DNA of 64,000 nt from Raja brachyura (lineage: Eukaryota). The DNA lies in assembly GCA_963514005.1 (NCBI GenBank), contig OY740783.1:6076001-6140000 (forward strand), in the 5' to 3' direction. The translations under genes and the position numbers were made by a program. The notes under the pieces are model-generated. The model saw only the letters and a program-made list of their open reading frames with translations, made no database searches and had not been told where the DNA came from. Positions 50,380 through 64,000 of this stretch are shown here, piece after piece. Each line of letters starts with the position of its first letter. Positions within the stretch are counted from its first letter, which is position 1.

Positions 50380-50556
50380 GGAGCCGTGTCTCAGCTCCGC
50401 CCGTTGCACCACTCGGTTTACAGGCCCCGCCCACAGCCACGCCCTCTGTTGCCGGGTATTTAATTCTCTCTAAGAGGGTCCGAAATCCATCTTCCTTGCA
50501 GTGGGTTTGTTGCGAGGTTCTGTACAGAAACAAACCGGGTCACACTTCCCAGCGGG
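50380..50556 (+). promoter_or_regulatory. Putative VH proximal promoter / 5'UTR
   Basis: GC-box-like CCCCGCCC/CCACGCCC and TATA-like TATTTAA (50457-63) about 100 bp before the ATG. No octamer; bounded upstream by HER1 tails. Confidence 0.5.
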
Positions 50557-50602
50557 ATGAGGTCGGCGGTTTCACTGAGTCTGTTCCTGGCGTTAATAGT
50601 CC
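50557..50602 (+). CDS. Ig heavy chain (IgM cluster) leader exon
   Basis: ATG at 50557 reads MRSAVSLSLFLALIV+c, then donor GTGAGT at 50603. Hydrophobic signal peptide of the elasmobranch VH leader type; phase 1. Confidence 0.93.
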
Positions 50603-50776
50603 GTGAGTAACGAGTTGGACAAAATCCTCACGCATGTTTCTCAGTGGTAGATCCCCAATGCCATTCCCCTTCTACCCACTCTTCAACCCTCCCAATGTCT
50701 TTCCTCTTGATAATTAGTGTCGGGGATTAATTGTCAGTATTTTATCCTCACCATTCATGCCTTTTATAACTTGCAG

Positions 50777-51080
50777 ATGTCCATTCCGATGTCGTTCTAA
50801 CTCAGCCCAAGACAGCGACGGCCCGTCCTGGAGGCTCCATTACACTGGAATGTAAAACCAGCGGGTTCACTCTTAGCAGCTACGCAATGTATTTGGTCCG
50901 TCAGGTCCCTGGGCAGGGGCTGGAGTGGCTGATTTCCTACAACAGTTATTATAGCAAGAACATCGCTCCGGGGATAGAGAGCCGATTTACTCCGTCCAAA
51001 GACAATTCGAATAATATGTTCACCGTGACCGCCAGGGACCTGAGGATCGAAGACACCGCTGTCTATTACTGTGCGAGAGA
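50777..51080 (+). CDS. IGHV: Ig heavy chain variable (VH) exon, open reading frame
   Basis: Acceptor ttgcag, then (H)[100 protein letters not shown]. Both Cys and the YYC motif are present; heptamer follows. Confidence 0.97.
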
Positions 51081-51119
51081 CACAGTGTGAGGATTCAGTG
51101 ACAAGAGCGGCACGTTGGG
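51081..51119 (+). promoter_or_regulatory. VH 3' recombination signal sequence, atypical
   Basis: Perfect heptamer CACAGTG at 51081-51087. At 23-bp spacing the sequence is CACGTTGGG (not a nonamer). Nonamer-like ACAAGAGCG lies at 51101-51109, giving a 13-bp spacer. Confidence 0.8.
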
Positions 51120-51427
51120 AAGTCCAGCTTTCACCATCAAAGACCAGAGGTGAGAATTTTTTTTCAACAGCTATAATAACAGTCGGAAAATGGAGCGCAA
51201 ACTACCGTTGGCAAATCCAACACGATATGTTGTTCCATTGTTTAAAAAGGGTTCAAAGAATAAACCTAGCAATTATTCAAAATGTAACCAGCGCATTGAA
51301 GTGAGATTGGTTTGTTCTTTCCTTCACTCATACCGACAGCGTTGTGTACAATCATAGACCTCGAATATATGCTGATTCCATTACGCAGTTGAGATGCAGG
51401 GAGATTGTTGGTGTTATGTCTACTATG

Positions 51428-51583
51428 TTCCAGTTCATTGGCTATATTTAAGCGGGAGTTAGATGTGGCCCTTGTGGCTAAGGGGATCAGAGGGTATGGA
51501 GAGAAGGCAGGTACGGGATACTGCGTTGGATGATCGAAGGGCCGAATGGCCTACTCCTACACCTATTTTCTATGTTTCTATGT
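51428..51583 (+). mobile_element. HER1 3' fragment inside the V-D interval
   Basis: ccagttcattggctatatttaag...cctattttctatgtttctatg. Confidence 0.85.
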
Positions 51584-51660
51584 TCTCTGTGAACTGCTGG
51601 GCCATTTAAAATCGTGTCGAAGGCCATTTCAAATGAAACCCAAGTGTGAACTGTATGGGA

Positions 51661-51688
51661 GGTTTTTGTGTGGGTCTGTCTCACTGTG
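51661..51688 (-). promoter_or_regulatory. Canonical 12-bp-spacer RSS 5' of the D segment
   Basis: Plus-strand GGTTTTTGT (51661-69), 12 nt spacer (gtgggtctgtct), CACTGTG (51682-88). Both motifs are perfect consensus. Confidence 0.95.
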
Positions 51689-51758
51689 TATGCGGTGGGT
51701 AGAATACTTACGGGTTTTGACTACTGGGGAGGAGGCACCATGTTGACCATAACCAACG
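51689..51758 (+). CDS. IGHJ: Fused D(-D)-JH segment
   Basis: Reads YAVGRILTGFDYWGGGTMLTITN+g, then donor GTAAG at 51759. FDYWGxGT J motif; no heptamer or nonamer between the D-like and J parts. Confidence 0.9.
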
Positions 51759-53284
51759 GTAAGAAACTTCATCCTATTCAGTCTCTAGATGTATCCAGTT
51801 GTAATTTTAATATATATTTCCAATAATTGTCTTCTGCATTAATTACCAATTCATTGCAATGTTGGATCGATGTTGCTTTAGAATGTTATGTGATTTCGCT
51901 GCAGTAAGATTACCAAATTAAACGTGCCTTGTATGCTATGACTTCGATCCTTTGATGATGGAACGGGTGTGATTTAGTTCCTAATTAGTCGAAAAATGTG
52001 CTTGAATTTGCCTTCACCATGCTTTCAAATTGTTTGAGACTGTTGTTGTCCAAGATCAGCGATGCATCTAACTGTGTTTTCTGATCAACAGCGGGTGCTT
52101 TGTCTCAGTTTGTTTGTTCTCAACGCATATTTCTCAACACATGGATTTAAGAGAGAGTTAGATAGAGCTCTAGGGACTAGTGGAATCAAGGGATATGGGG
52201 AGAAGGCAGGCACGGGTTATTGATTGGGGATGATCAGCCATGATCACAATGAATGGCGGTGCTGGCTCGAAGGGCCGAATGGCCTCTTCCTGCACCTATT
52301 TTCTATGTTTTTATGTTTCTATATGAAACAAACGATAGAAAGGGATAAATCCTGGGTGTAAAATGTCCAAGTTTTCTATATAAGAAGTGTATGTATTAAT
52401 TGGTGGAATCGCATTGCTACCTTTGATCCAATGGCTAACAAAACTTGCATTGAAGATGTATCATTTTCTTGCAGCAAAGCACAGAAGTGCAAAGTTCTTT
52501 AGTAACTTGTCAGTTTCTTTGTTGAACTCAATTAAGGAGCATGTTGCAATCAAGATCGCTTGAACAATGGGTTGGGAAGGCGGTGTGTCTCCATATCGTG
52601 GAAGCATTGGTAATCACTCTCCAATGTCCTATACATTCTGCATCAGTTCCTGTGGATTAAGGGTAGATAATGCTATCCCACTTTTCAAGATAGGAGGGAG
52701 AGAGAAAGCAGGGAATGACAGAGCAGTTGGCCTGACATCGGTAGTGGGAGAGATGCTGGAGTCAATTAGCAAATAAGTAACATCGGCGCGTTTGGTTAGC
52801 AGTAACAGGATCGATCTATTGTCTATGTATCTATGTATTGGTGGAGTCCATTTGTTATTGTGTTATTTCAACAATGATTGGCTCGGCCGTCTTTGGGCCA
52901 ATGAATTTCGGTGGTCTATGGACAGAGATATTTGGATTTTTGTGAAGAGTTTCAGTCAATGTGTGTTGTGTGATTCAGCCCATCAGCGGTATCATTCAGC
53001 CGGTCATTGCGGGAGACGATGGTGTTGCACAATTGGATGTTTTTGTATGTTCAATTCGAATGGCAACGACCGGGTATTGCTGTCGGATTGGGTTATTTCA
53101 ATAAACGCAAAGAAGATATATGTTTAAAAATAAGCAGGAATTGATGTAAATTAATAAGACCAATACATTCTGCAAACACTTAAAGGGTCAGGCAACCTGC
53201 GGCGAAAGTCAAATCTCAGGCAGGGGACCAGAAAGACAGCTGGTAGCGCCAGAGCGCCAACTACGTTTCCGAAATCAGTGGCAG

Positions 53285-53495
53285 ACTGTGTAGGAATTTG
53301 TGCATTTTCCCTGTGGTTTAAATGCTATTTACTGGTGCTCTGCTTTCCTCCCACGTCCCGAAGACGTGCAGGTTTGAAGTTTAATTGACCTGTGTGATTG
53401 TCCCTGGTGTGTCAGGGGTGGATGCGATAACGTAGAACGTGTGTGTCGCCGTGGATTTGGTTGGCAGAAAGATCTATTTCTTTGTTCCATCTCTA
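53285..53495 (+). mobile_element. Degenerate V-SINE/HE1-like SINE
   Basis: ggtgctctgctttcctcccacgtcccgaagacgtgcaggtt resembles the V-SINE central domain. Confidence 0.55.
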
Positions 53496-54384
53496 ATCTT
53501 AAATGAATTTGCCATGAACTGGTCATCCAAGTATCGTTGACCTGGAAATGTATTGGTTTTCCCCTTCCACAAGTGTTGCCCGACCCGATGACCCATGTCT
53601 CAATTTCCTGTTCAATACCACGACATTACCTATTTGGAAAATACCTTGACTGTCAAATGGGGACATTTCGGAACAGCTGTAGTATTTAAATAATTTTTAA
53701 TCCACGCATTTATTAGAAAGACAATTTGAAATCAAATTTTGTCTACGGCGCCCAATGTCATTTAAACATAACGTTCCTCTATTTACTAAATTGCTAATGA
53801 AAAATGTAATTTACGGTTAAAAAAAAAGAAAATTGGGGAAATGAAGTGGAATGTTGGAAACGACATTTTCTGCTATTTTAATTATAGAACAGGGTATCCC
53901 ACTAATCCTTGAATAGAATCAGAATTTAAATCGATGGCTCATAGGAGGGTTTGAGCGACGTTCAAAATTACATTTGCATTTAATTAATTAAAACATTGAT
54001 TTACCAACATTGTGCATTTTCACTATTAAAAGTAGACTTCCTCTATATGAATTAAAGACTTTTGCCGTTAAAGTCACGAAGCAAACTTAGAATTTTTTTT
54101 AATAGATTGCAGGTTGTAATTTATGATGGGTATCTTTTTAATTCGTTTACGATCAGACAGTGATACAACGTTAATCATTCGTTCTCCAGTGCCGATGATA
54201 TTGTAAACGTAAACTCGTTTTAAAGATGCTGGAAACGGAACTGAGCGTCATTGCAAAAACATTAATATTCATTTGATTAATTTTTGAATCCATTAAGGGA
54301 CAGTCCATTGCAATGGTGCACACAGACAAACATTTGAAACCTGTGCCAATTGATTCAATGGCGAAGTACTAACATGTTCTTACT

Positions 54385-55495
54385 ATTTATTTATTTATTT
54401 ATTTTTCTTTTTGTTAAATATTTTTATTAGAAGTACATATTAAAGGAAGAATATACATGTCACATTAATATTAACAATTATTTCTGATTTGTACTTCTAT
54501 GCATTAAAATTTTTTTTAATACAGGTAGGAAATAATAGAGAAAAATAAAGTAAAAATAGAAAATCAAAAAGATGAATGAAGTATTAAGCAGGTTTCCATC
54601 ATTGGAGATATATCCATGGATTATTATATGTGATTCTTCATCTATTCCTTCATTCAGGCTTCAGTCAGGTTCTCACACCGAGCCATTTTGACCCTTTAAA
54701 TATTCAATAAATGGAGACCATATCCCTCTGAATTGATCCAACTTGCCCAGTAGGACAAGTCTTAATCTTTCCAGGTGAAGTGTCTCCGACATTCCTGTAA
54801 TCCACATTTTGATTGTGGGGGATGTAGGACCTTTCCAAAATTTCAATATTAATTTTTTCCTATTTATTAAACTGTGATCGATAAAAATTCTTTTATTCGT
54901 TGTTATTAATTGATCTGTTCTAATATCCGTAATATTATTAATTTTGAGTCAGGAGTGTTCTTACAATTTATATGCTACATTTAGCTTCCAGATGTTGGAA
55001 TACATAACGTTTATTAATGTAGACATTATATTGAGAGAGTTAATTAAAATCTTTACCAATGCAATCTCTTCCATATTTTTTATCTGGTATGAATGTAATG
55101 TTCTTATCCAATGTCGGCTGGATTGCTTTTCGGAATTTACTTGTAATTACTGTCGGCATACAAATGATCAGTATATTTTCGTGAGTGATAGGAGTGATAT
55201 TTCACAAAATACAGTGCAAAGTGACATTTTAGGTGTGTTATTTGTCGTTAAATAATAGAGCTACCATTTCAATCCCATCCACCTCCTTAGTTGGTTTGGT
55301 TCGATTGACACATTTTAGGGAAAAGTTCATGGCAAGATTGTGATTTTTTTTTTTTTGTCTTCTCTCAATTTATGTTCGGGAGCCCGATATGGTAAACCAG
55401 TCATCTTTCCAATTTCTGTGAATTGATCGGATAGTCTCTGAACCATTTATAAAACCCAAACTCTTCCCTCCAAATCAAATGTTTTGCCATGGGCA
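54385..55495 (-). mobile_element. Degraded L1-like 3' fragment in the J-C intron
   Basis: Reverse strand encodes FWKGPTSPTIKMWITG...IWSPFIEYL, similar to the C-terminus of the 8602-9720 ORF; T-rich tail at 54385-54425. Confidence 0.7.
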
Positions 55496-55499
55496 CTCT

Positions 55500-56320
55500 C
55501 AAGGTTCAAGGTTCAAGGTTAGTTTATTTGTCACATACACCAATTGGTGTAGTGAAATGTTTCTTGCCATGCAGCACATAAAATAAAGAATACAGACATA
55601 ACACTAATAAAGAGATTTAAACATAAAAAACATTCCCCCCACAATGGTTCCCATTATGAGGGAAGGCACAAAGTCCAGTCCCCAACCCATGTCCACCCAT
55701 AGTCAGGCCTATTGAGGCCTCCATAGTCGCCTTCACGGAGGCCCAATGTTCCAGGCCGTTCTCGCCGGGTGATGGTGCTCCGGCGTCGGGAGAATCCTCT
55801 CAGTGGCTTGGGACACCTGGAACGGCCGCTTCCTACTGGAGTCCGCGGCTTCCGAAGCCGACAAGGCCGCGCTGAATGGAGCTCCCCCACTGGCTCCCAA
55901 TGTTAAAGTTCACGCCGCCTCCCGCTGCTGGCCGCTCCACAGACCCGCGGCTCCGCGATGTTTGTCTCGGCGGTCTCAGCTCACCGGAGTTCCAGCACGG
56001 CGACCCAGGCAAGGCATCACCTGCTCCGCCCCGCGATGGCGCTCCGCCGCTGCCGAAGCCGAGGTTCTGGGCGGTCTCCTCAGGAAACGACGCTCCAGGC
56101 CCGCTGGTGGGCCGCGAGGATGGGTCGAGCCCGGAGAAAGGCTGCCTCTCCGACCAGGTAGGGACCAGGAAAAGTAGTTTCCCCCTCCCCCCCACCCCCC
56201 CTCCCACAAAAAGAATAGACTCCAAAAACAAAACACTTTAAACACACGAAAATAAAGAAAAGGGTGAAAAACATACAGCTGCAGGCTGGGCAGCCATACC
56301 ATACAGGACGGCGCCCCCTA
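55500..56320 (-). mobile_element. Unclassified GC-rich retroposon-like element
   Basis: (AAGGTTC)n tail and tttatt at the left end; CpG-rich body; sharp compositional boundaries. Confidence 0.45.
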
Positions 56321-56529
56321 TCAAAAACCCATCTCATGGGTCCAAGCGAAACCTATCTAAATTATTTAATTTTAATTAAATTAATGCAAATGTAATTTTG
56401 ACGTCAGTCAAATCCTCCTTTGAGCCATCGATTCCAATTCTCATTCTATTCAAATATTAGTGGGATACCCTGTTCTATAATTAAAATAGCAGAACATTTC
56501 GTTTCCAACATTCCACTAATTTCCATTTG

Positions 56530-56995
56530 GTTGGGTACATGGAACAAACCCTGACACAGACTGCCCCTATCCCCATATTCTTCCTCCTATACTCGTGGAG
56601 AACTCATGGACTTCATTAGCTACTAACTGAGACCCTACGATCAATTTCACCGGGTCCATCCCCGACACATACCTCCACTTTGTTGATTTCACCGTCTCCA
56701 TCGCAGGAGATAGACTATCGACTGTCGTAAATTGCAAATCTACGGACTCTCACAGCTATCAGGACTACAGCTCTTCCAACCTTGCCTCCTGCAAAGACTC
56801 TATGTCCTATTCCCAAATTCAACCATCTCCGCGCAACTGCTCCCAAGATGAGTTGTTCCATACCAGAATATCCGCGGTCCTCATTCTTTAGAGGAGCTGG
56901 TATTCCCCACGTTTACCATAGACGAGGCCCTCACACGTGTCCACACTGTGTCCCCCAGTTCTGCCCTTACTCCATCATCCCCAGTCACAACAAGG
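56530..56995 (+). mobile_element. Degenerate Penelope-like RT fragment
   Basis: DFTVSIAGDRLST...STDSHSYQDYSSSN...YSQ-like translation. Confidence 0.62.
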
Positions 56996-57435
56996 AGTTT
57001 GGTGAGATTGTAACGTTAGTTATGGCCATTGAGCATTCCTGAGAAACCCAGGGAATTTTACAGTAATTAATACTGGAGGCCTATTGATATATTTCCAACT
57101 CAAAATTGTGCGTACATTTGACAGTAACTGCCAGATATTGGCACCCCAAGAAGTTTTCAGCCAATGAGCTCCAAGGTGGGATCAAGGTGGAATGTTGAAT
57201 CAGCCATGATCACAACGAATGGCGGTGCTGGCTCGATGGGCCGAATGGCCTCCTCCTGCACCTATTTTCTATGTTTCCATTTTCTATGTTGAACTAATAG
57301 TTTATGATACTCGGGTGAAGTTTCATGAAATAGAATATTGTGTAACGAATTGCTGTATAATGATTCTTCGCACTGAATATTTTGCAAAATGAGCAAGAGA
57401 GAGAGTTTAACATTCATGTGACCTTTGACTTGCAG

Positions 57436-57732
57436 CGGCTGATTCCCCCCCCAGCCCCTTCATTCTCTTCACGTGCGAGGATCGCGGCTCCAGTGGTTCG
57501 TTCACCTACGGTTGTTTGGCGTTGGGCTATTCCCCTGCGGGCGCCAGTGTCTCTTGGAAGAAAGATGATACAGACCTGGTCGATGGAGTGAAGGAATACC
57601 CGGCAGTGTTCAATAAGTTGGGAACTTACACCCGGAGCAGCGAGTTAACCATCACAGAGGCAGTGGCTGGGGGAAGCGACATCTTCTGTGTGGTTCGGCA
57701 CAACCAAAAAGAGTATAAAGTGAAAGTACCAG
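57436..57732 (+). CDS. IGHM: IgM CH1 exon
   Basis: Acceptor ttgcag; AADSPPSPFILFTCEDRGSSGSFTYGCLALGYSPAGASVSWKK...TYTRSSELTI...DIFCVVRHNQKEYKVKVP; donor GT at 57733. C1-set Cys/Trp/Cys plus an N-terminal Cys suited to light-chain linkage. Confidence 0.92.
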
Positions 57733-57873
57733 GTTCGTGTTGGGGTGCAATGCAAGGCTGAGGGTGGAGTTGGGGTCAAGTGTGTTTTATTGTCATGTGT
57801 CCCAGATAGAACAATTAAATTCTTGCTTGCTGCAGCACAACAGAATATGTGAACATCATAAATAATATGATAA

Positions 57874-58007
57874 NNNNNNNNNNNNNNNNNNNNNNNNNNN
57901 NNNNNNNNNNNNNNNNNNNNNNNNNNNNNNNNNNNNNNNNNNNNNNNNNNNNNNNNNNNNNNNNNNNNNNNNNNNNNNNNNNNNNNNNNNNNNNNNNNNN
58001 NNNNNNN
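57874..58007. other. Assembly gap (134 N) in the CH1-CH2 intron
   Basis: Run of N. Confidence 1.
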
Positions 58008-58319
58008 TAACAGTGCAATAATAATAGTCTATTGTCGTTCAGAGCTTATGAGGTTGTACTGTTTAATAGCCTGGACGTTACAGTTCTCAGGCTCTTGTAC
58101 CTTCTTCACGATGGCAGTGGTGAGATGAGTGTGTGGCCCGCATGGTGTGGGTCTCCGATGATGTTGGCTGCCTTTTTTGAGGCAGCAACTCCGATACATC
58201 CCTTTGATGATGTAGAGGTCAGCGCCGGTTATAGACTGGGCAGTGATTGCAACTTTTTGCAGTCTTTTTCCGTTCCTGGACTTTCAAATTGCCGAACCAA
58301 TCCATGATGCAATGCATAT

Positions 58320-59025
58320 AATTTGCGGGAAAGGAAGCTCACAAAGGGATAGGAGAGTATGGCCAAGTGTAATAGGGATCGATGTGAAAGGTAAGATGCG
58401 TAAGGAATTAAAAGTATTGTATATGAATGCGTGAAGTATAAGAAGTAAAGTAGATGAGCTTGAGGCTCAGTTGAAGGTTGGTAGATATGACATTGTGGGG
58501 ATTACTGAGACGTGGCTGCAGGAGGATCGGGCCTGGAAACTTCATATTCAGGGTTAGACATCCTATCGAAAGGACAGGCAGGTGGGCAGAGGAGCGGGGG
58601 TAGCTCTGCTGGTGAGGGGGAATGTTATAGAAACATATAAACATATAAACATATAAACTTATAAAAGGACTGGACAAGCTAGATGCAGGAAAAATGTTCC
58701 CAATGTTGGGCAAGTCCAGAACCAGGGGCCACAGTCTTAGAATAAAGGGGAGGTCATTTAAGACTGAGGTGAGAAAAAAAGTTTTCACCCCGAGAATTGT
58801 GAATTTATGGAATTCACTGCCACAGAGGGCAGTGGAGGCCAAGTCACTGGATGGATTTAAGAGAGAGTTGGATAGAGCTCTAGGGGCTAGTGGAGTCAAG
58901 GGATATGGGGAGAAGGCAGGCACGGGTTATTGATTGGGGACGATCAGCCGTGATCACAATGAATGGCGGTGCTGGCTCAAAGGGCCAAATGGTCTCCTCC
59001 TGCACCTATTTTCTATGTTTCTATC
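58320..59025 (+). mobile_element. CR1/HER1 endonuclease fragment joined to a 3' fragment
   Basis: KVLYMNA, GITETWL; FPMLGKSRTRGHSL and tail. Confidence 0.8.
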
Positions 59026-59504
59026 TCAACAGAAAGTGACAATATGCCTTGCCCGCTAAATTATTCCAGCTCTTTGCTTTAAAAAAAAATTGAACACCAT
59101 CTGCTGTTGTTGATTGGATAAAACGGTGAGTTTTGTTTCCTGGCACCGAGGAGCGAGAGCGATATTTATAATACCGAAGCACTGTCGTTCGTTCTTGGCA
59201 TGGAACGAAAGGTGGTGCTTAAATTATCGAGGCAATTCACCATTTACAAAATCATAAAAAACCAAAATGACTTGGAAGAGAGCTTGAAAAGAGTGCTCAT
59301 AAATGTATTATCATCACGAGCACGTTCATATAAATCGCGAGGAACTGATCTATCCGTAGATAAGTTACATTTTAACTCGCGAACAATCGAAGTGGCTGAG
59401 TGCATCATGTTGAGAACATTATCAAGGGTATTAAAAGCACAGACACAGACATAGAGGACAGAAGCAGAACAGTTGGCCCATAACATCCATGTGACAACTA
59501 CTTA

Positions 59505-59772
59505 TGCCCCTGTCCATCTTAGGAAACCAGAACGGAAGCCTCTAAGACTTTGCGCCCCACCCAATGTTTCCGTGTGGTTCCCGGAGGTTTTCGTCAGTCT
59601 CCCTAATGGTCGAAAGTGGTTTCCGCTTCTTCTATGTTCCGGCCATTATTTCAAAAATTTGAAAAAACCTCTGGGAACCTGACAAAAACCTCCGGGAACC
59701 GCACGGAAACCTTGGGTGGGGCACAAAGTCTCCAGAGGTTTCCGTTCAGGTTTCCTAAGTGGGACAGGGGCA
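59505..59772. mobile_element. PIF/Harbinger-type MITE
   Basis: TIRs of about 90 bp (TGCCCCTGTCC... / ...GGGACAGGGGCA) and TTA TSD at 59502-04 and 59773-75. Confidence 0.85.
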
Positions 59773-59972
59773 TTACCGAGCTATAATTTCCCCATTTACG
59801 AGCACTCGATGTACCATGGTAAACAAAGAATTTAGCAGCATCTCTGCAAGTCCAAGTGAGTGGGTGGCTACGTTTAATCGGAAAAAGTGATTTATTTTTT
59901 GGTCAAAATAATGTGTCAATATTAATCGACGATTGTTTTAGAGCAATTCCAATGAAGTTTATTTTCTTTCAG

Positions 59973-60287
59973 AACATGTGGTATATCATCCAACCGTCAC
60001 CATTACCGTAACTTCCCTTGATGAAATCAAGCGCAGCAAAAAAGCGATCGCCGTGTGTTTGGTCAACGATTTCACCCCAGCAAAATTTGCTGTGAACTGG
60101 CTGAAGAATGGAAAGCAAGTGGATTCTGGCATCGTCACCTCTCCCGCCTTCCAGGTGAACGTTAACGGTAACTTCTCAGCGACCAGCCAGTTGACAATCC
60201 CAGCTCTAGAGTGGAACGGACGTGCCGTCTATACCTGCCAAGTCAACCATGAAAAACATATAAAAAGCCAAAATATCAGTAGGCAAG
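59973..60287 (+). CDS. IGHM: IgM CH2 exon
   Basis: Acceptor tttcag; EHVVYHPTVTIT...AVCLVNDFTPAKFAVNWLKNG...FSATSQL...YTCQVNH...ISRQ; donor GTAAG. Confidence 0.95.
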
Positions 60288-60748
60288 GTAAGAAATACAT
60301 CCGTGGTGTGTCTCGGGTATTAGTGTAAACATTAGTGCTTACAGTGGTAGAACTTCACTGACATGGACATAGGAAGGAAGTGCTGATGCTGGTTTACACC
60401 GAAAGTGGACACAAAATGCCGGATAACAGCGGGTTAGGCATCTCTAGAGAAAAGGAACAGGTGACGATTCGGGTCGAGACTCTTCTAGTATTAGTGGAGA
60501 GGGACACTAAAGGTATGAGTGTACAAAAAAACGATAGCCCATGGTGCGATCTCACATTTCATTCATTGTGTTGTTCTCTGCACAGAGACTAGAGTCAGTT
60601 CAAGATGATTTAGGACGACAGTTCCTAGAATCACAACTCGGAAGCGATCGTGTACACATTAAAGTTCTGGGGGTGAATGATTGGTGTAAACCTTCCATCC
60701 CAATTATCCCTGGAAATGCTTATATTCACATTAATTATTGTGCTATAG

Positions 60749-61051
60749 ATGATGGTCCCTGCGACGAACTGAAGATTACAATCCTTCCACCACCTGTTGA
60801 ACAAGAGTTAATGGAGATGACCGTGACGTTAACCTGTCTGGTATCCGATGCACCTTACGGTATCACAGTATCTTGGAAGCGCATAAAGGTGCCTTTGGCA
60901 TTAGATATCCAGTCCACAGAACATGGGGAAATCGTAGAGAGCAAAGTAAACATTTCGACTCGTGACTGGCTGAGTGGGGATTATTTCGAATGTGTGGTGA
61001 GCCATGAAGATCTGCCGTATCCAAAATCTAAACAAATCAACTGGAAGAAAG
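60749..61051 (+). CDS. IGHM: IgM CH3 exon
   Basis: Acceptor ctatag; DDGPCDELKITILPPPVEQELMEMTVTLTCLVSDAPYGITVSWKR...DWLSGDYFECVVSHEDLPYP...WKK; donor GTGAG. Confidence 0.95.
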
Positions 61052-61179
61052 GTGAGCCGGGGTAGCTGCAGAGAGGTTCTGTGGGCCAGAGGTGACTGGT
61101 GCTCTTTTTTCTGAGATAAAGCTAAAATTAATGATTGAGATCACTCCGTCGGAGAAGAAATATCTATGCAAAATGAAAT

Positions 61180-62210
61180 AGTGAGGGACCTTATCAAAGG
61201 TAATTTTACTTGTCACATCCTCAAAAAATTCCAGTAGATTAGTCAAGCATGATTTCCCTTTCATAAATCCATGTTGACTTGGACTAATACTTTTACTGCT
61301 ATCCAAATGCCCCATTATTACCTCTTTAATAATTGACTCCAGCATCTTTCCCACCACCGAAGTCAGGCTAACTGGTCTGTAATTCCCCGTTTTCTCTCTC
61401 GCTCCTTTCTTGAAATATGGGATAACATTAGCTATCCTCCAATCCACAGGAACTGATCCTGAATCTATTGAACATTGGAAAATGATCACCAATGATTCCA
61501 CTATTTCGAGAGCCACCTCCCTGAGGACCCTGGGATGCAGACCATCAGGCCCAGGGGTTTTATCATCCTTCAGTCCCATTCGCCTACCCAATACTATTTC
61601 TCGCCTAATGAACATTTCTTTCAGTTCCTCTACCCCCTTAGATCCCCTGTTCTCCAGTACATCTGGGAGTTTGTTTGTGTCTTCCTTAGTGAAGACAGAT
61701 CCTGTTCAACTCTTCTGCCATTCCCTTGTTCCCCATAATAAATTCACCCGTGTCTGCCTTCAAGGGACCCACATTTGACTTTGCTACTCTTTTTCCCTTA
61801 CAATATCTAAAGAAGCTTTTACTCTTCTTCTTTATATTCCTGGCCAGCTTCCTCTCGTACTTCATCTTTTCAGCCCGTATTGCCCGTTTTGTTTCCTTCT
61901 GTTGTCCTATGAAATTTTCACAATCCTCTGGCTTCCGGCTACTCTTTGCTGTGTTATACATTTTTTTTCTTTTAGTCTTATTCTATCTCTTGTCATCCAC
62001 AGTTGCCTCCTACTCTCCTTGGAATCTTTCTTTCTTTTTGGAATGAAGTGATCCTGTGTCTTCCGGATTTTGCCCAAAAATTCCCGCCATTGCTGTTCCA
62101 CCATCATTCCTGCTAGGATCCCTTTCCAGTCTACCTTGGCCTGCTCCTCCCTCATGCATTGATCTACATTGTCCCCTTTGTTCAACTGCATCACTGACAC
62201 TTCCCATTTC
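61180..62210 (-). mobile_element. HER1 ORF2 fragment in the CH3-CH4 intron
   Basis: Minus ORFs PGPDGLHPRVL and SQHGFMKGKSC. Confidence 0.85.
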
Positions 62211-62306
62211 ATACAAATCTTCTCCCGTGCAAAGGGGAGATGCACATTCAGGTGTATATGTCTGAACAAAGAGACGTCACAAAAGGGGAATGTAATACCG
62301 TTAATA

Positions 62307-63196
62307 GGGGGGTTGCACGTAAGGTCACTGGGCTTGATGCACAGAGCCACTCAATCCATCTGGAGGACATCACAGCTTCCGGTACATGTTATTAATGCAA
62401 GAAACGCACACTTTCCCACCTGTTCAAAACCGCCAAAATGTTGAATTTTTGCGCTGTAAAAAATTGTGGAAGTCGGGGCAAGCGTGAGGGACACGTACCC
62501 AACTTCAGAATTCCAAAGGTGAAGTGAAATGAAGGTAAAGAGAAGCGAGAGCTGAAGGGACAACAACAGCTAAAGTGCTTGGCGAACATTGGCCGTGCAG
62601 ATATCAGAATTTTAAAATATTGGGAATTCTCGCGTTTGCTCACTGCATTTCATCAACAGTAAGGCATTATTTGTGGTTTTTCTTGATTCCTTTGGTATCT
62701 AAAAAGTCTCAGAAGTGATAAAGCTGGCTGTAAATTTTACTTCAGAGGCGTTTTCTTTTCGTATGTAAAAACCCACTTGAGAACCATGGGCGATTTTAAA
62801 ATTTTACTGCCAGATTTATCACTTCGGAAACTTTTTAGATGCCAAAGGAATCAAGAAAAAACACAAATAATGTCTTAGTTGATGAAATACAGTGAGCAAA
62901 CGGCCAATGTTCACCAAGCACTCGGACTGTTGTTGTCCCTTTAGCTCTCGCTTCTATCTACCGTCATTTCTCCTCACTTTTGGAATTCTGAAGTAAGCTA
63001 AATGTCTCTCGCGCTTATCCCGATTTCCATAATTATTTACAGCGCAGAAATAGACCATTTCGGTGGGTTTTAACGGGCCCGCCACGCTGGAAACAATGGC
63101 CAGTGCTTACCTGCAGTTCATCGCGTGTACTCCAGTTGGTGTGGAGCGGCGACAGTACGGGTCACGGGTCGTGAGCCGACTGCCGTGAAACCTCCC
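62307..63196. mobile_element. Foldback/MITE-like DNA element with long imperfect inverted arms
   Basis: 62412-62738 is the reverse complement of about 62799-63085. Short terminal IR GGGGGGTTGCACG / CGTGAAACCTCCC. Confidence 0.72.
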
Positions 63197-63229
63197 AAAT
63201 AAATAAACGCCATTTGAATTGTCCCATAG

Positions 63230-63621
63230 GTCAACATCTGCTGACACCGTCCGTCTCAGTCCTTCTGCCGCCGACAGAAGAGATCTCCGCGCACAAGACT
63301 ATCACCCTCACCTGCTTTGTGAGAGGATTCTCCCCTCGCAGGGTCTTCGTAACGTGGACGCATGATGACAAGCGGGTGCATTGGAGCAAGTACAAGAACA
63401 CCGAGGTGGTGGCGGAGAACGGCAATGAAACATTCTTCACCTACAGCCTGTTATCCGTTGGGGCAGCGGAGTGGGCTAGCGGAGCCTCCTTCTCCTGTCT
63501 GGTGGGGCACGAAGCACTCCCCATGAAGACCATTGTCAGAACGGTCAATAAGTCTAGCGGTAAACCCAGTTTTGTCAACGTTTCCCTTGTATTGATGGAC
63601 ACTGTCAATTCCTGTCAATAA
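63230..63621 (+). CDS. IGHM: IgM CH4 exon plus secretory tailpiece
   Basis: [37 protein letters not shown]...[13 protein letters not shown]...[23 protein letters not shown]. Typical elasmobranch mu tailpiece with NVS glycan site and penultimate Cys; internal donor G|GTAAAC at 63560 for the membrane form. Confidence 0.97.
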
Positions 63622-63648
63622 GAATGAATTAGTTTCAATTTTCTCTGA

Positions 63649-63654
63649 AATAAA
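63649..63654 (+). terminator. Polyadenylation signal of secretory IgM
   Basis: AATAAA starting 28 nt after the stop codon. Confidence 0.75.
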
Positions 63655-64000
63655 TACTAATACATACATTTAACTTCCAATTTTGAGCTGAACACATGGC
63701 CACCCAATTAATTATATAGAACATTTGCCAAAACGATGATGTTGATACGTGTAAATCTTGCCGACCATTCACGGAAAACGGATGCAGACTGCACACACAG
63801 TAACATCGGGGTTTGGGAGATAAGTCACAGCTGCACGAATAGCGGACTCACTTCAACATTATTGCTCTTGCTGGGTAGATATGGGTCCATGTCTGTGGAT
63901 CTCCATTTCTCTCCTTCTCCTGTTTCCAATCCATTCAGATCCAAGGCAGGATGTGAGACGTCGTAGCAACTCACCCTCTTCCGCCCGCATGAGGGGAACT

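What the first reader, a model, noticed from the sequence alone, without database searches (positions are those of the whole stretch)
53837..56524. Inverted duplication in the J-C intron, each arm carrying an octamer: candidate intronic enhancer
Seen: 53837-53993 and 56371-56524 are reverse complements of about 155 bp with moderate divergence. Each holds the Ig octamer (ATTTGCAT at 53972-79; ATGCAAAT at 56384-91) beside an AT-rich TAATTAA tract. The right arm also has a perfect CRE, TGACGTCA, at 56399-406. Established: octamer sites are core to mammalian E-mu and to teleost IgH enhancers, whereas shark VH promoters lack the octamer and cluster enhancers are poorly defined. Inference: a duplicated E-mu-like element, or long TIRs of an old DNA transposon that delivered octamers.
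Basis: partly seen in the sequence, partly recalled or inferred. Interest (0 to 1): 0.7.

Follow-up and report, generated by a model that had tools for sequence, protein, structure and literature searches.

The report
Old inverted copy in antibody-gene intron
A 170-base piece of an antibody-gene intron in a cartilaginous fish was copied backwards into a dead retroelement next door and is now carried by most of the fish's IgM genes; both copies keep a known B-cell control word, but they change as fast as the DNA around them, so this is likely a passenger and only possibly the gene's enhancer.

Summary
The inverted pair is real: 53837-53993 against 56370-56524, 141 of 155 aligned bases identical, inside the J-Cmu intron of an IgM cluster. 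It is not a transposon's terminal repeats. The right arm interrupts a dead reverse-transcriptase fragment that resumes on its far side, and all 40 and 41 genome hits of two arm queries lie in IgM introns. So the right arm is a later inverted copy of the left arm. The duplication is about as old as the expansion of this genome's IgM family: 23 of 28 IgM-type loci keep both octamer-bearing halves and 45 of 49 arms keep a perfect octamer. Both arms also occur at low copy in two other species, and none was found in six IgW-type introns. The CRE is a one-base deletion private to this cluster and its twin, both probably unable to rearrange. Evidence for function is weak. The arms change as fast as the dead retroelement (0.59-0.61 against 0.60 changes per site) and octamer constraint is not significant (P 0.06-0.15). 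Verdict: most likely an inherited passenger (0.55); a duplicated E-mu-like enhancer stays open (0.35) and is easy to test.

The parts
50557..50602 (+). VH leader exon
   Evidence: translation MRSAVSLSLFLALIV then a GT donor
50777..51080 (+). VH exon, open frame
   Evidence: Pfam V-set E 5e-14; 27 IgM-type relatives at 68-100% identity
51081..51109 (+). V recombination signal with a 13-bp spacer (23 bp in the 13 unjoined sister clusters); likely unusable against the 12-bp D signal
   Evidence: the 12/23 rule is established knowledge
51661..51758 (+). D 5' recombination signal (12-bp spacer) followed directly by a germline-joined D-J segment
   Evidence: in unjoined sister clusters this signal lies 700-800 bp before J
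53824..53993 (+). left arm: native AT-rich intron DNA, inferred source of the copy; octamer 53972-53979, AT tract 53980-53993
   Evidence: its left flank matches only IgM loci; the spacer matches only IgM loci apart from one 70-bp repeat piece
53994..54390 (.). spacer A, shared by IgM clusters
54391..54955 (.). later insertion 1, only in the 8 clusters of this tandem array; flanked by a short direct repeat of the target; retroelement-like (class recalled, not tested)
54956..55466 (.). spacer B, shared by IgM clusters
55467..55504 (+). dead reverse-transcriptase fragment, inner piece (continues at 56332-56358)
   Evidence: matches 9 of 9 dispersed copies fetched, 82-89%
55505..56331 (.). later insertion 2, only in this cluster and its twin; dispersed repeat
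56359..56528 (-). right arm: inverted copy of the left arm inserted into the reverse-transcriptase fragment; octamer 56384-56391; private CRE 56399-56406
56529..57150 (+). dead reverse-transcriptase fragment, outer piece, resuming where the inner piece stopped (Penelope-like by recalled motifs)
   Evidence: 8 of 9 dispersed copies match both pieces in order, 66-75% on the long outer matches; Atlas neighbours carry RVT_1/HTH_animal at minority shares; Pfam RVT_1 only E 0.24
57436..57732 (+). Cmu1 exon (CH2-CH4 and secretory tail follow at about 59975, 60749 and 63231-63621)

Best explanation
The right arm is an inverted copy of the left arm that sits inside a dead reverse-transcriptase fragment, likely pasted there by template switching during break repair in one ancestral IgM cluster, and both arms are likely carried today as passengers. 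Shown: the retroelement sequence stops at the inner edge of the right arm and resumes at its outer edge with next to no loss; arms and spacer occur only in IgM clusters. Inferred: left arm as source, repair as mechanism (2-3 bp of shared letters at the junctions), and timing just before the IgM family expanded. The octamers can probably bind Oct factors, but no selected role is shown.
For: Retroelement continuous across the right arm: 8 of 9 dispersed copies match both sides in order; junction alignment leaves a gap of about 182 bp and loses at most a few bases; junction rows. Arm tree separates left from right arms apart from one weak pair; pairing of arms within each locus is rejected (AU p 7e-156). 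Left-right distance 0.14-0.19 equals the between-family arm distance 0.13-0.19. Rates: left arm 0.61, right arm 0.59, dead retroelement 0.60, spacers 0.44-0.53 changes per site. Three clusters with out-of-frame joined VDJ (C30, C4, C5) keep both octamers. One chance octamer in a 3.5-kb intron has P about 0.16, and the second is its copy.
Against: The duplicated 170 bp holds the only perfect octamer of the original unit (P about 0.01 for a given 170 bp). The octamer ties for the least-changed 8-mer of 165 in the arm when gaps count; it is within the best 22 of 165 on substitutions alone. All 17 tandem clusters keep both arms and at least one perfect octamer, while 5 of 11 dispersed loci lost one or both octamer-bearing halves; by branch length that pattern has P 0.13-0.20. 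Power is low: the family is young.
Confidence: 0.55

Rival explanations
1. The left arm is the core of an E-mu-like intronic enhancer bound by Oct1/Oct2; the same inverted insertion doubled it, and each IgM cluster uses one or both octamers to open the locus.
For: Position between J and Cmu; only perfect octamers in the unit. 45 of 49 arms perfect; one of the four variants is ATGTAAAT, the functional variant of the catfish enhancer (PMC1800861, passages). 17 of 17 tandem clusters keep at least one. No change listed within the octamer in contigs of organisms H and I. Shark VH promoters lack the octamer (PMC2435157, passages) and an OCA-B ortholog is reported in sharks (PMC13043367, passages).
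Against: No arm-wide constraint; octamer joint P 0.06-0.15, permutation P 0.07. No E2A-type E-box, Runx or NF-kB match in either arm. MEF2-like and EICE-like words are not kept across copies. No arm in six IgW-type introns and no octamer in the first 10 kb after their V. Two loci with open V frames lack both octamers (C24, in-frame VDJ; C15b, VD-joined); their expression is unknown.
Confidence: 0.35
2. The palindrome itself matters: the arms pair (as DNA or as a long pre-mRNA stem) and shape the intron, like the inverted shell of the mammalian 3' regulatory region.
For: The arms can form a duplex of -203.5 kcal/mol as RNA. The mammalian 3'RR palindrome is kept and is needed for full activity (PMC3068965 and PMC5449612, abstracts).
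Against: No continuing homogenisation between the arms; they have drifted to 78-89% identity; spacer length varies from 1.0 to over 5 kb; a short repeat sits inside the left arm of 13 clusters. Any inverted repeat gives such a duplex energy; no control was run.
Confidence: 0.07
3. The arms are terminal inverted repeats of an old DNA transposon that delivered the octamers.
For: Length (170 bp) and the 1-kb ancestral spacer would fit a non-autonomous element (recalled).
Against: The supposed inside is continuous with the outside flank across the right arm. No copy outside IgM loci among 40 of 51 and 40 of 50 candidates scored. The 18-bp core has 24 exact hits, 22 in IgM loci, and the other 2 match only 19-23 bp. 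No target duplication is visible. Low copy in other species.
Confidence: 0.03

Closest known systems
Templated insertions made by microhomology-mediated template switching (MMB-TI; PMC8421209, abstract and section titles seen)
   Same: A short stretch copied from a nearby template into a new site, with a few shared bases at the junctions.
   Different: Here it is an ancient germline event fixed in a gene family; the pathway cannot be shown from sequence.
Mammalian IgH intronic enhancer E-mu (PMC1800861 and PMC13043367, passages; motif list partly recalled)
   Same: J-Cmu position, perfect octamer, AT-rich surroundings.
   Different: Two inverted octamers 1-2.4 kb apart; no muE2/muE5-type E-box in the arms; no constraint seen; activity untested.
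Catfish E-mu-3' enhancer (PMC1800861, abstract and passages)
   Same: Two octamers; one arm carries the same ATGTAAAT variant.
   Different: The catfish element lies 3' of Cmu and has a muE5 site beside its octamers.
Palindrome of the mammalian IgH 3' regulatory region, with hs3 doubled in mouse and rat (PMC3068965, PMC5449612, abstracts)
   Same: Inverted duplication in an IgH locus that could double a regulatory element.
   Different: Arms 170 bp against about 3 kb, intronic, no known enhancer in the middle, not kept alike by concerted change.

Membership tests
DNA transposon TIRs | Internal sequence unrelated to the outer flanks | tested here: not met
   reverse-transcriptase fragment continuous across the right arm
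DNA transposon TIRs | Dispersed copies elsewhere in the genome | tested here: not met
   the searches score only the best candidates, so very decayed copies could be missed
DNA transposon TIRs | Target-site duplication at the outer ends | tested here: not met
   outer flanks compared by eye across 26 loci
Local templated inverted insertion | Insert interrupts a continuous sequence and matches a nearby template | tested here: met
Local templated inverted insertion | Microhomology at junctions | tested here: inconclusive
   2 and 3 shared bases; too short and too old to tell from chance
E-mu-type intronic enhancer | Position between JH and Cmu | tested here: met
E-mu-type intronic enhancer | Octamer site | tested here: met
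   45 of 49 arms
E-mu-type intronic enhancer | Clustered E-box, Ets and Runx sites beside the octamer (motif list recalled) | tested here: not met
   consensus scan finds none of these inside the arms; one Ets-like word at 54036-54043 in the spacer
E-mu-type intronic enhancer | Sequence constraint above neutral flanks | tested here: inconclusive
   arms not slower than flanks; octamer P 0.06-0.15; low power
E-mu-type intronic enhancer | B-cell-specific enhancer activity and open chromatin | not testable with these tools
   needs reporter assay, ATAC-seq or ChIP
3'RR-type regulatory palindrome | Arms kept complementary while diverging between lineages | tested here: not met
   within-locus pairing rejected; one homogenisation at the base of each family cannot be excluded (AU 0.46 against 0.54)

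The most novel reading that the evidence does not exclude
The left arm is the intronic IgH enhancer of cartilaginous fish. It was doubled by an inverted insertion in one ancestral cluster, and that doubled cluster then founded nearly the whole IgM family of this lineage, perhaps because two Oct sites win the competition for limiting factors that decides which cluster rearranges first.
Probability: 0.2. Interest if true: 0.7.

Novelty: new member of a known kind. Interest (0 to 1): 0.33.

Why it matters
How each of the many shark and skate IgH clusters is switched on is open; my searches found no mapped IgH enhancer in these fishes. This element is one small, family-wide candidate, and it comes with natural variants (clusters with two, one or no octamers) that make a test cheap. 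If neutral, it is still a marker that nearly all IgM clusters of this lineage descend from one cluster.

Tried and rejected
CRE as a signal: private to 2 of 49 arms. Concerted evolution of the arms within each locus: rejected. Spacer inversion between the arms: all loci with a spacer have it in the same direction. Switch-like region: AGCT/WGCW counts are not raised around the arms. Single-copy ancestral homolog in IgW-type introns, three loci with distant V/C exons, or the divergent Cmu locus on contig 35: none by blastn, covariance model or nhmmer. A genome-wide profile search for very decayed arm copies was not obtained, so those remain unexcluded. Expression: no RNA holder listed; two guessed-RNA contig sets were laid and say nothing either way. 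Sharks and distant rays could not be compared: only near-identical holders are found. One search's octamer figure used a reference whose left octamer is mutated and was replaced. Pfam did not name the retroelement. Four key papers on shark and skate IgM introns were not held (Zhu 2012, Lee 2008, Zhu 2011, Harding 1990); they or their supplements may describe this intron. No earlier finding matched the arm by sequence or by words.

Full report
Observation. The arms align as 53837-53993 and 56370-56524 (reverse), 141 of 155 aligned bases identical, score 230 against at most 30 in 200 shuffles. The surroundings are an IgM cluster of a cartilaginous fish: leader, VH, a joined D-J, and four C exons whose last best matches IgM constant regions. 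Earlier AI notes call the genome a skate's (not tested here). The VH promoter region has no octamer, and the two arm octamers are the only perfect ones from 50400 to 64000.

Distribution. Two arm queries returned 40 and 41 matches (40 of 51 and 40 of 50 candidates scored), all at IgM loci (loci mapped). The 18-bp octamer core has 24 exact hits: 22 in IgM loci and 2 elsewhere that match only 19-23 bp; the reversed control has 0. The left flank matches only IgM loci (26 of 26 candidates). The spacer does too, except for one 70-bp repeat piece (40 of 218 candidates scored). I examined 28 IgM-type loci: 17 in two tandem arrays and 11 dispersed. Both octamer-bearing halves are present in 17 of 17 and 6 of 11; three dispersed loci have one and two have none. 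45 of 49 aligned arms keep a perfect octamer. Six IgW-type introns (class inferred from 44-52% V identity and the J motif), three loci with distant V/C exons and a divergent Cmu locus hold no arm. Contigs of organisms H and I cover the whole unit, with both outer junctions seen; only 20 and 19 records lay on an arm, against tens of thousands on the stretch that includes a short repeat. These species are close relatives (about a quarter of 31-mers shared).

Origin. The 70-bp repeat piece at the inner edge of the right arm belongs to a reverse-transcriptase retroelement. Of 9 dispersed copies fetched, all match the inner piece and 8 also match the sequence just outside the right arm, in order. 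Aligning such copies across the locus leaves one gap of about 182 bp, the arm, with almost no retroelement bases lost; 2 and 3 bases are shared at the two junctions. So the right arm is an insertion into older DNA, and the left arm, embedded in IgM-only sequence, is the inferred template. This excludes terminal repeats of a transposon. The name Penelope-like is recalled; Pfam gave only RVT_1 at E 0.24 and the Atlas gave neighbours with RVT_1 or HTH_animal at minority shares. Templated insertions from nearby DNA are a known outcome of template switching (PMC8421209, abstract). The ancestral spacer is about 1.0 kb; two later insertions stretch it to 2.4 kb here.

Age. Left arms group with left and right with right, apart from one weak pair. 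Ongoing pairing within loci is rejected (AU p 7e-156); one duplication and one homogenisation at the base of each family fit equally (0.54 and 0.46; 16 of 49 arms used). Left-right distances (0.14-0.19) match the between-family arm distances (0.13-0.19), so the event came at about the root of the present IgM family.

Function. Changes per site on the cluster tree: left arm 0.61, right arm 0.59, dead retroelement 0.60, spacers 0.53 and 0.44, CH1 0.61 (columns present in at least 22 of 28 loci). Each octamer shows 2 changes against a mean of 4.4 per 8-mer; joint P 0.13-0.15 on substitutions, 0.06-0.07 with gaps; permutation within the arm P 0.07. With gaps counted, the octamer ties for the least-changed of 165 arm windows. 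Arm losses fall only on dispersed loci, P 0.13-0.20 by branch length. For an enhancer: the position; a 1% chance of an octamer in a given 170 bp; every tandem cluster keeps one; one variant equals the functional catfish variant (PMC1800861, passages). Against: a 16% chance of one octamer somewhere in the intron; three out-of-frame clusters keep both; two loci with open V frames have none; no companion E-box, Runx or NF-kB match in the arms. The CRE results from a one-base deletion in this cluster and its twin only. Both have a V signal shortened to a 13-bp spacer facing a 12-bp D signal, so they probably cannot finish rearrangement.

Literature. Seven searches on shark or skate IgH introns, enhancers and octamers listed no paper describing this element. 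Passages seen: PMC2435157 (shark IgH genes lack the upstream octamer; limiting promoter-enhancer complex model), PMC1800861, PMC13043367, PMC5192425, PMC12227049, PMC9936319. Abstracts: PMC5449612, PMC3068965, PMC8421209. PMC2192082 gave no passage. Four primary papers were not held, so absence from print is not established.

Verdict. The feature is real and family-wide, and its origin is explained (about 0.9 for the inverted insertion). Passenger 0.55, duplicated E-mu-like enhancer 0.35, structural palindrome 0.07, transposon ends 0.03. Interest 0.33.

Noticed in passing
window 51081-51109 and 51661-51758; twin at G000:C3:5653747-5660691 (L070): This cluster and its near-identical twin are V plus germline-joined D-J, with a 10-bp deletion that turns the V signal's 23-bp spacer into 13 bp; probably locked unrearranged.
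   Followed up: partly
L041:9503-9790, L083, L084 (G000:C35, about 31.56 Mb): A divergent IgM constant region (CH1 49%, CH4 82% identity, membrane exon present) with no V or J found in 50 kb upstream, a weak VH-promoter-like match 4.9 kb before CH1 (E 0.009) and an octamer in an AT tract 2.6 kb before CH1.
   Followed up: partly
G000:C2:150.3-151.1 Mb and C3:5.25-6.33 Mb: Two tandem arrays (9 and 8 clusters) hold all IgM clusters with an unjoined V signal; the dispersed loci with a V in view are germline-joined, several out of frame and several near contig ends.
   Followed up: partly
L046-L048, L060-L065, inner end of the right arm: The AT tract at the inner end of the right arm is tandemly expanded in most contig-2 clusters, and a short repeat has inserted into the left arm in the contig-2/4/5/17 lineage.
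   Followed up: no
window 59504-59773 and 62419-63077: Two further self-inverted elements in Cmu introns, 270 bp and about 660 bp, MITE-like by look.
   Followed up: no
L031 (G000:C15:58.44 Mb) and L035 (G000:C24:41.95 Mb): Clusters with open V frames that lack both octamers; natural controls for an enhancer test.
   Followed up: partly
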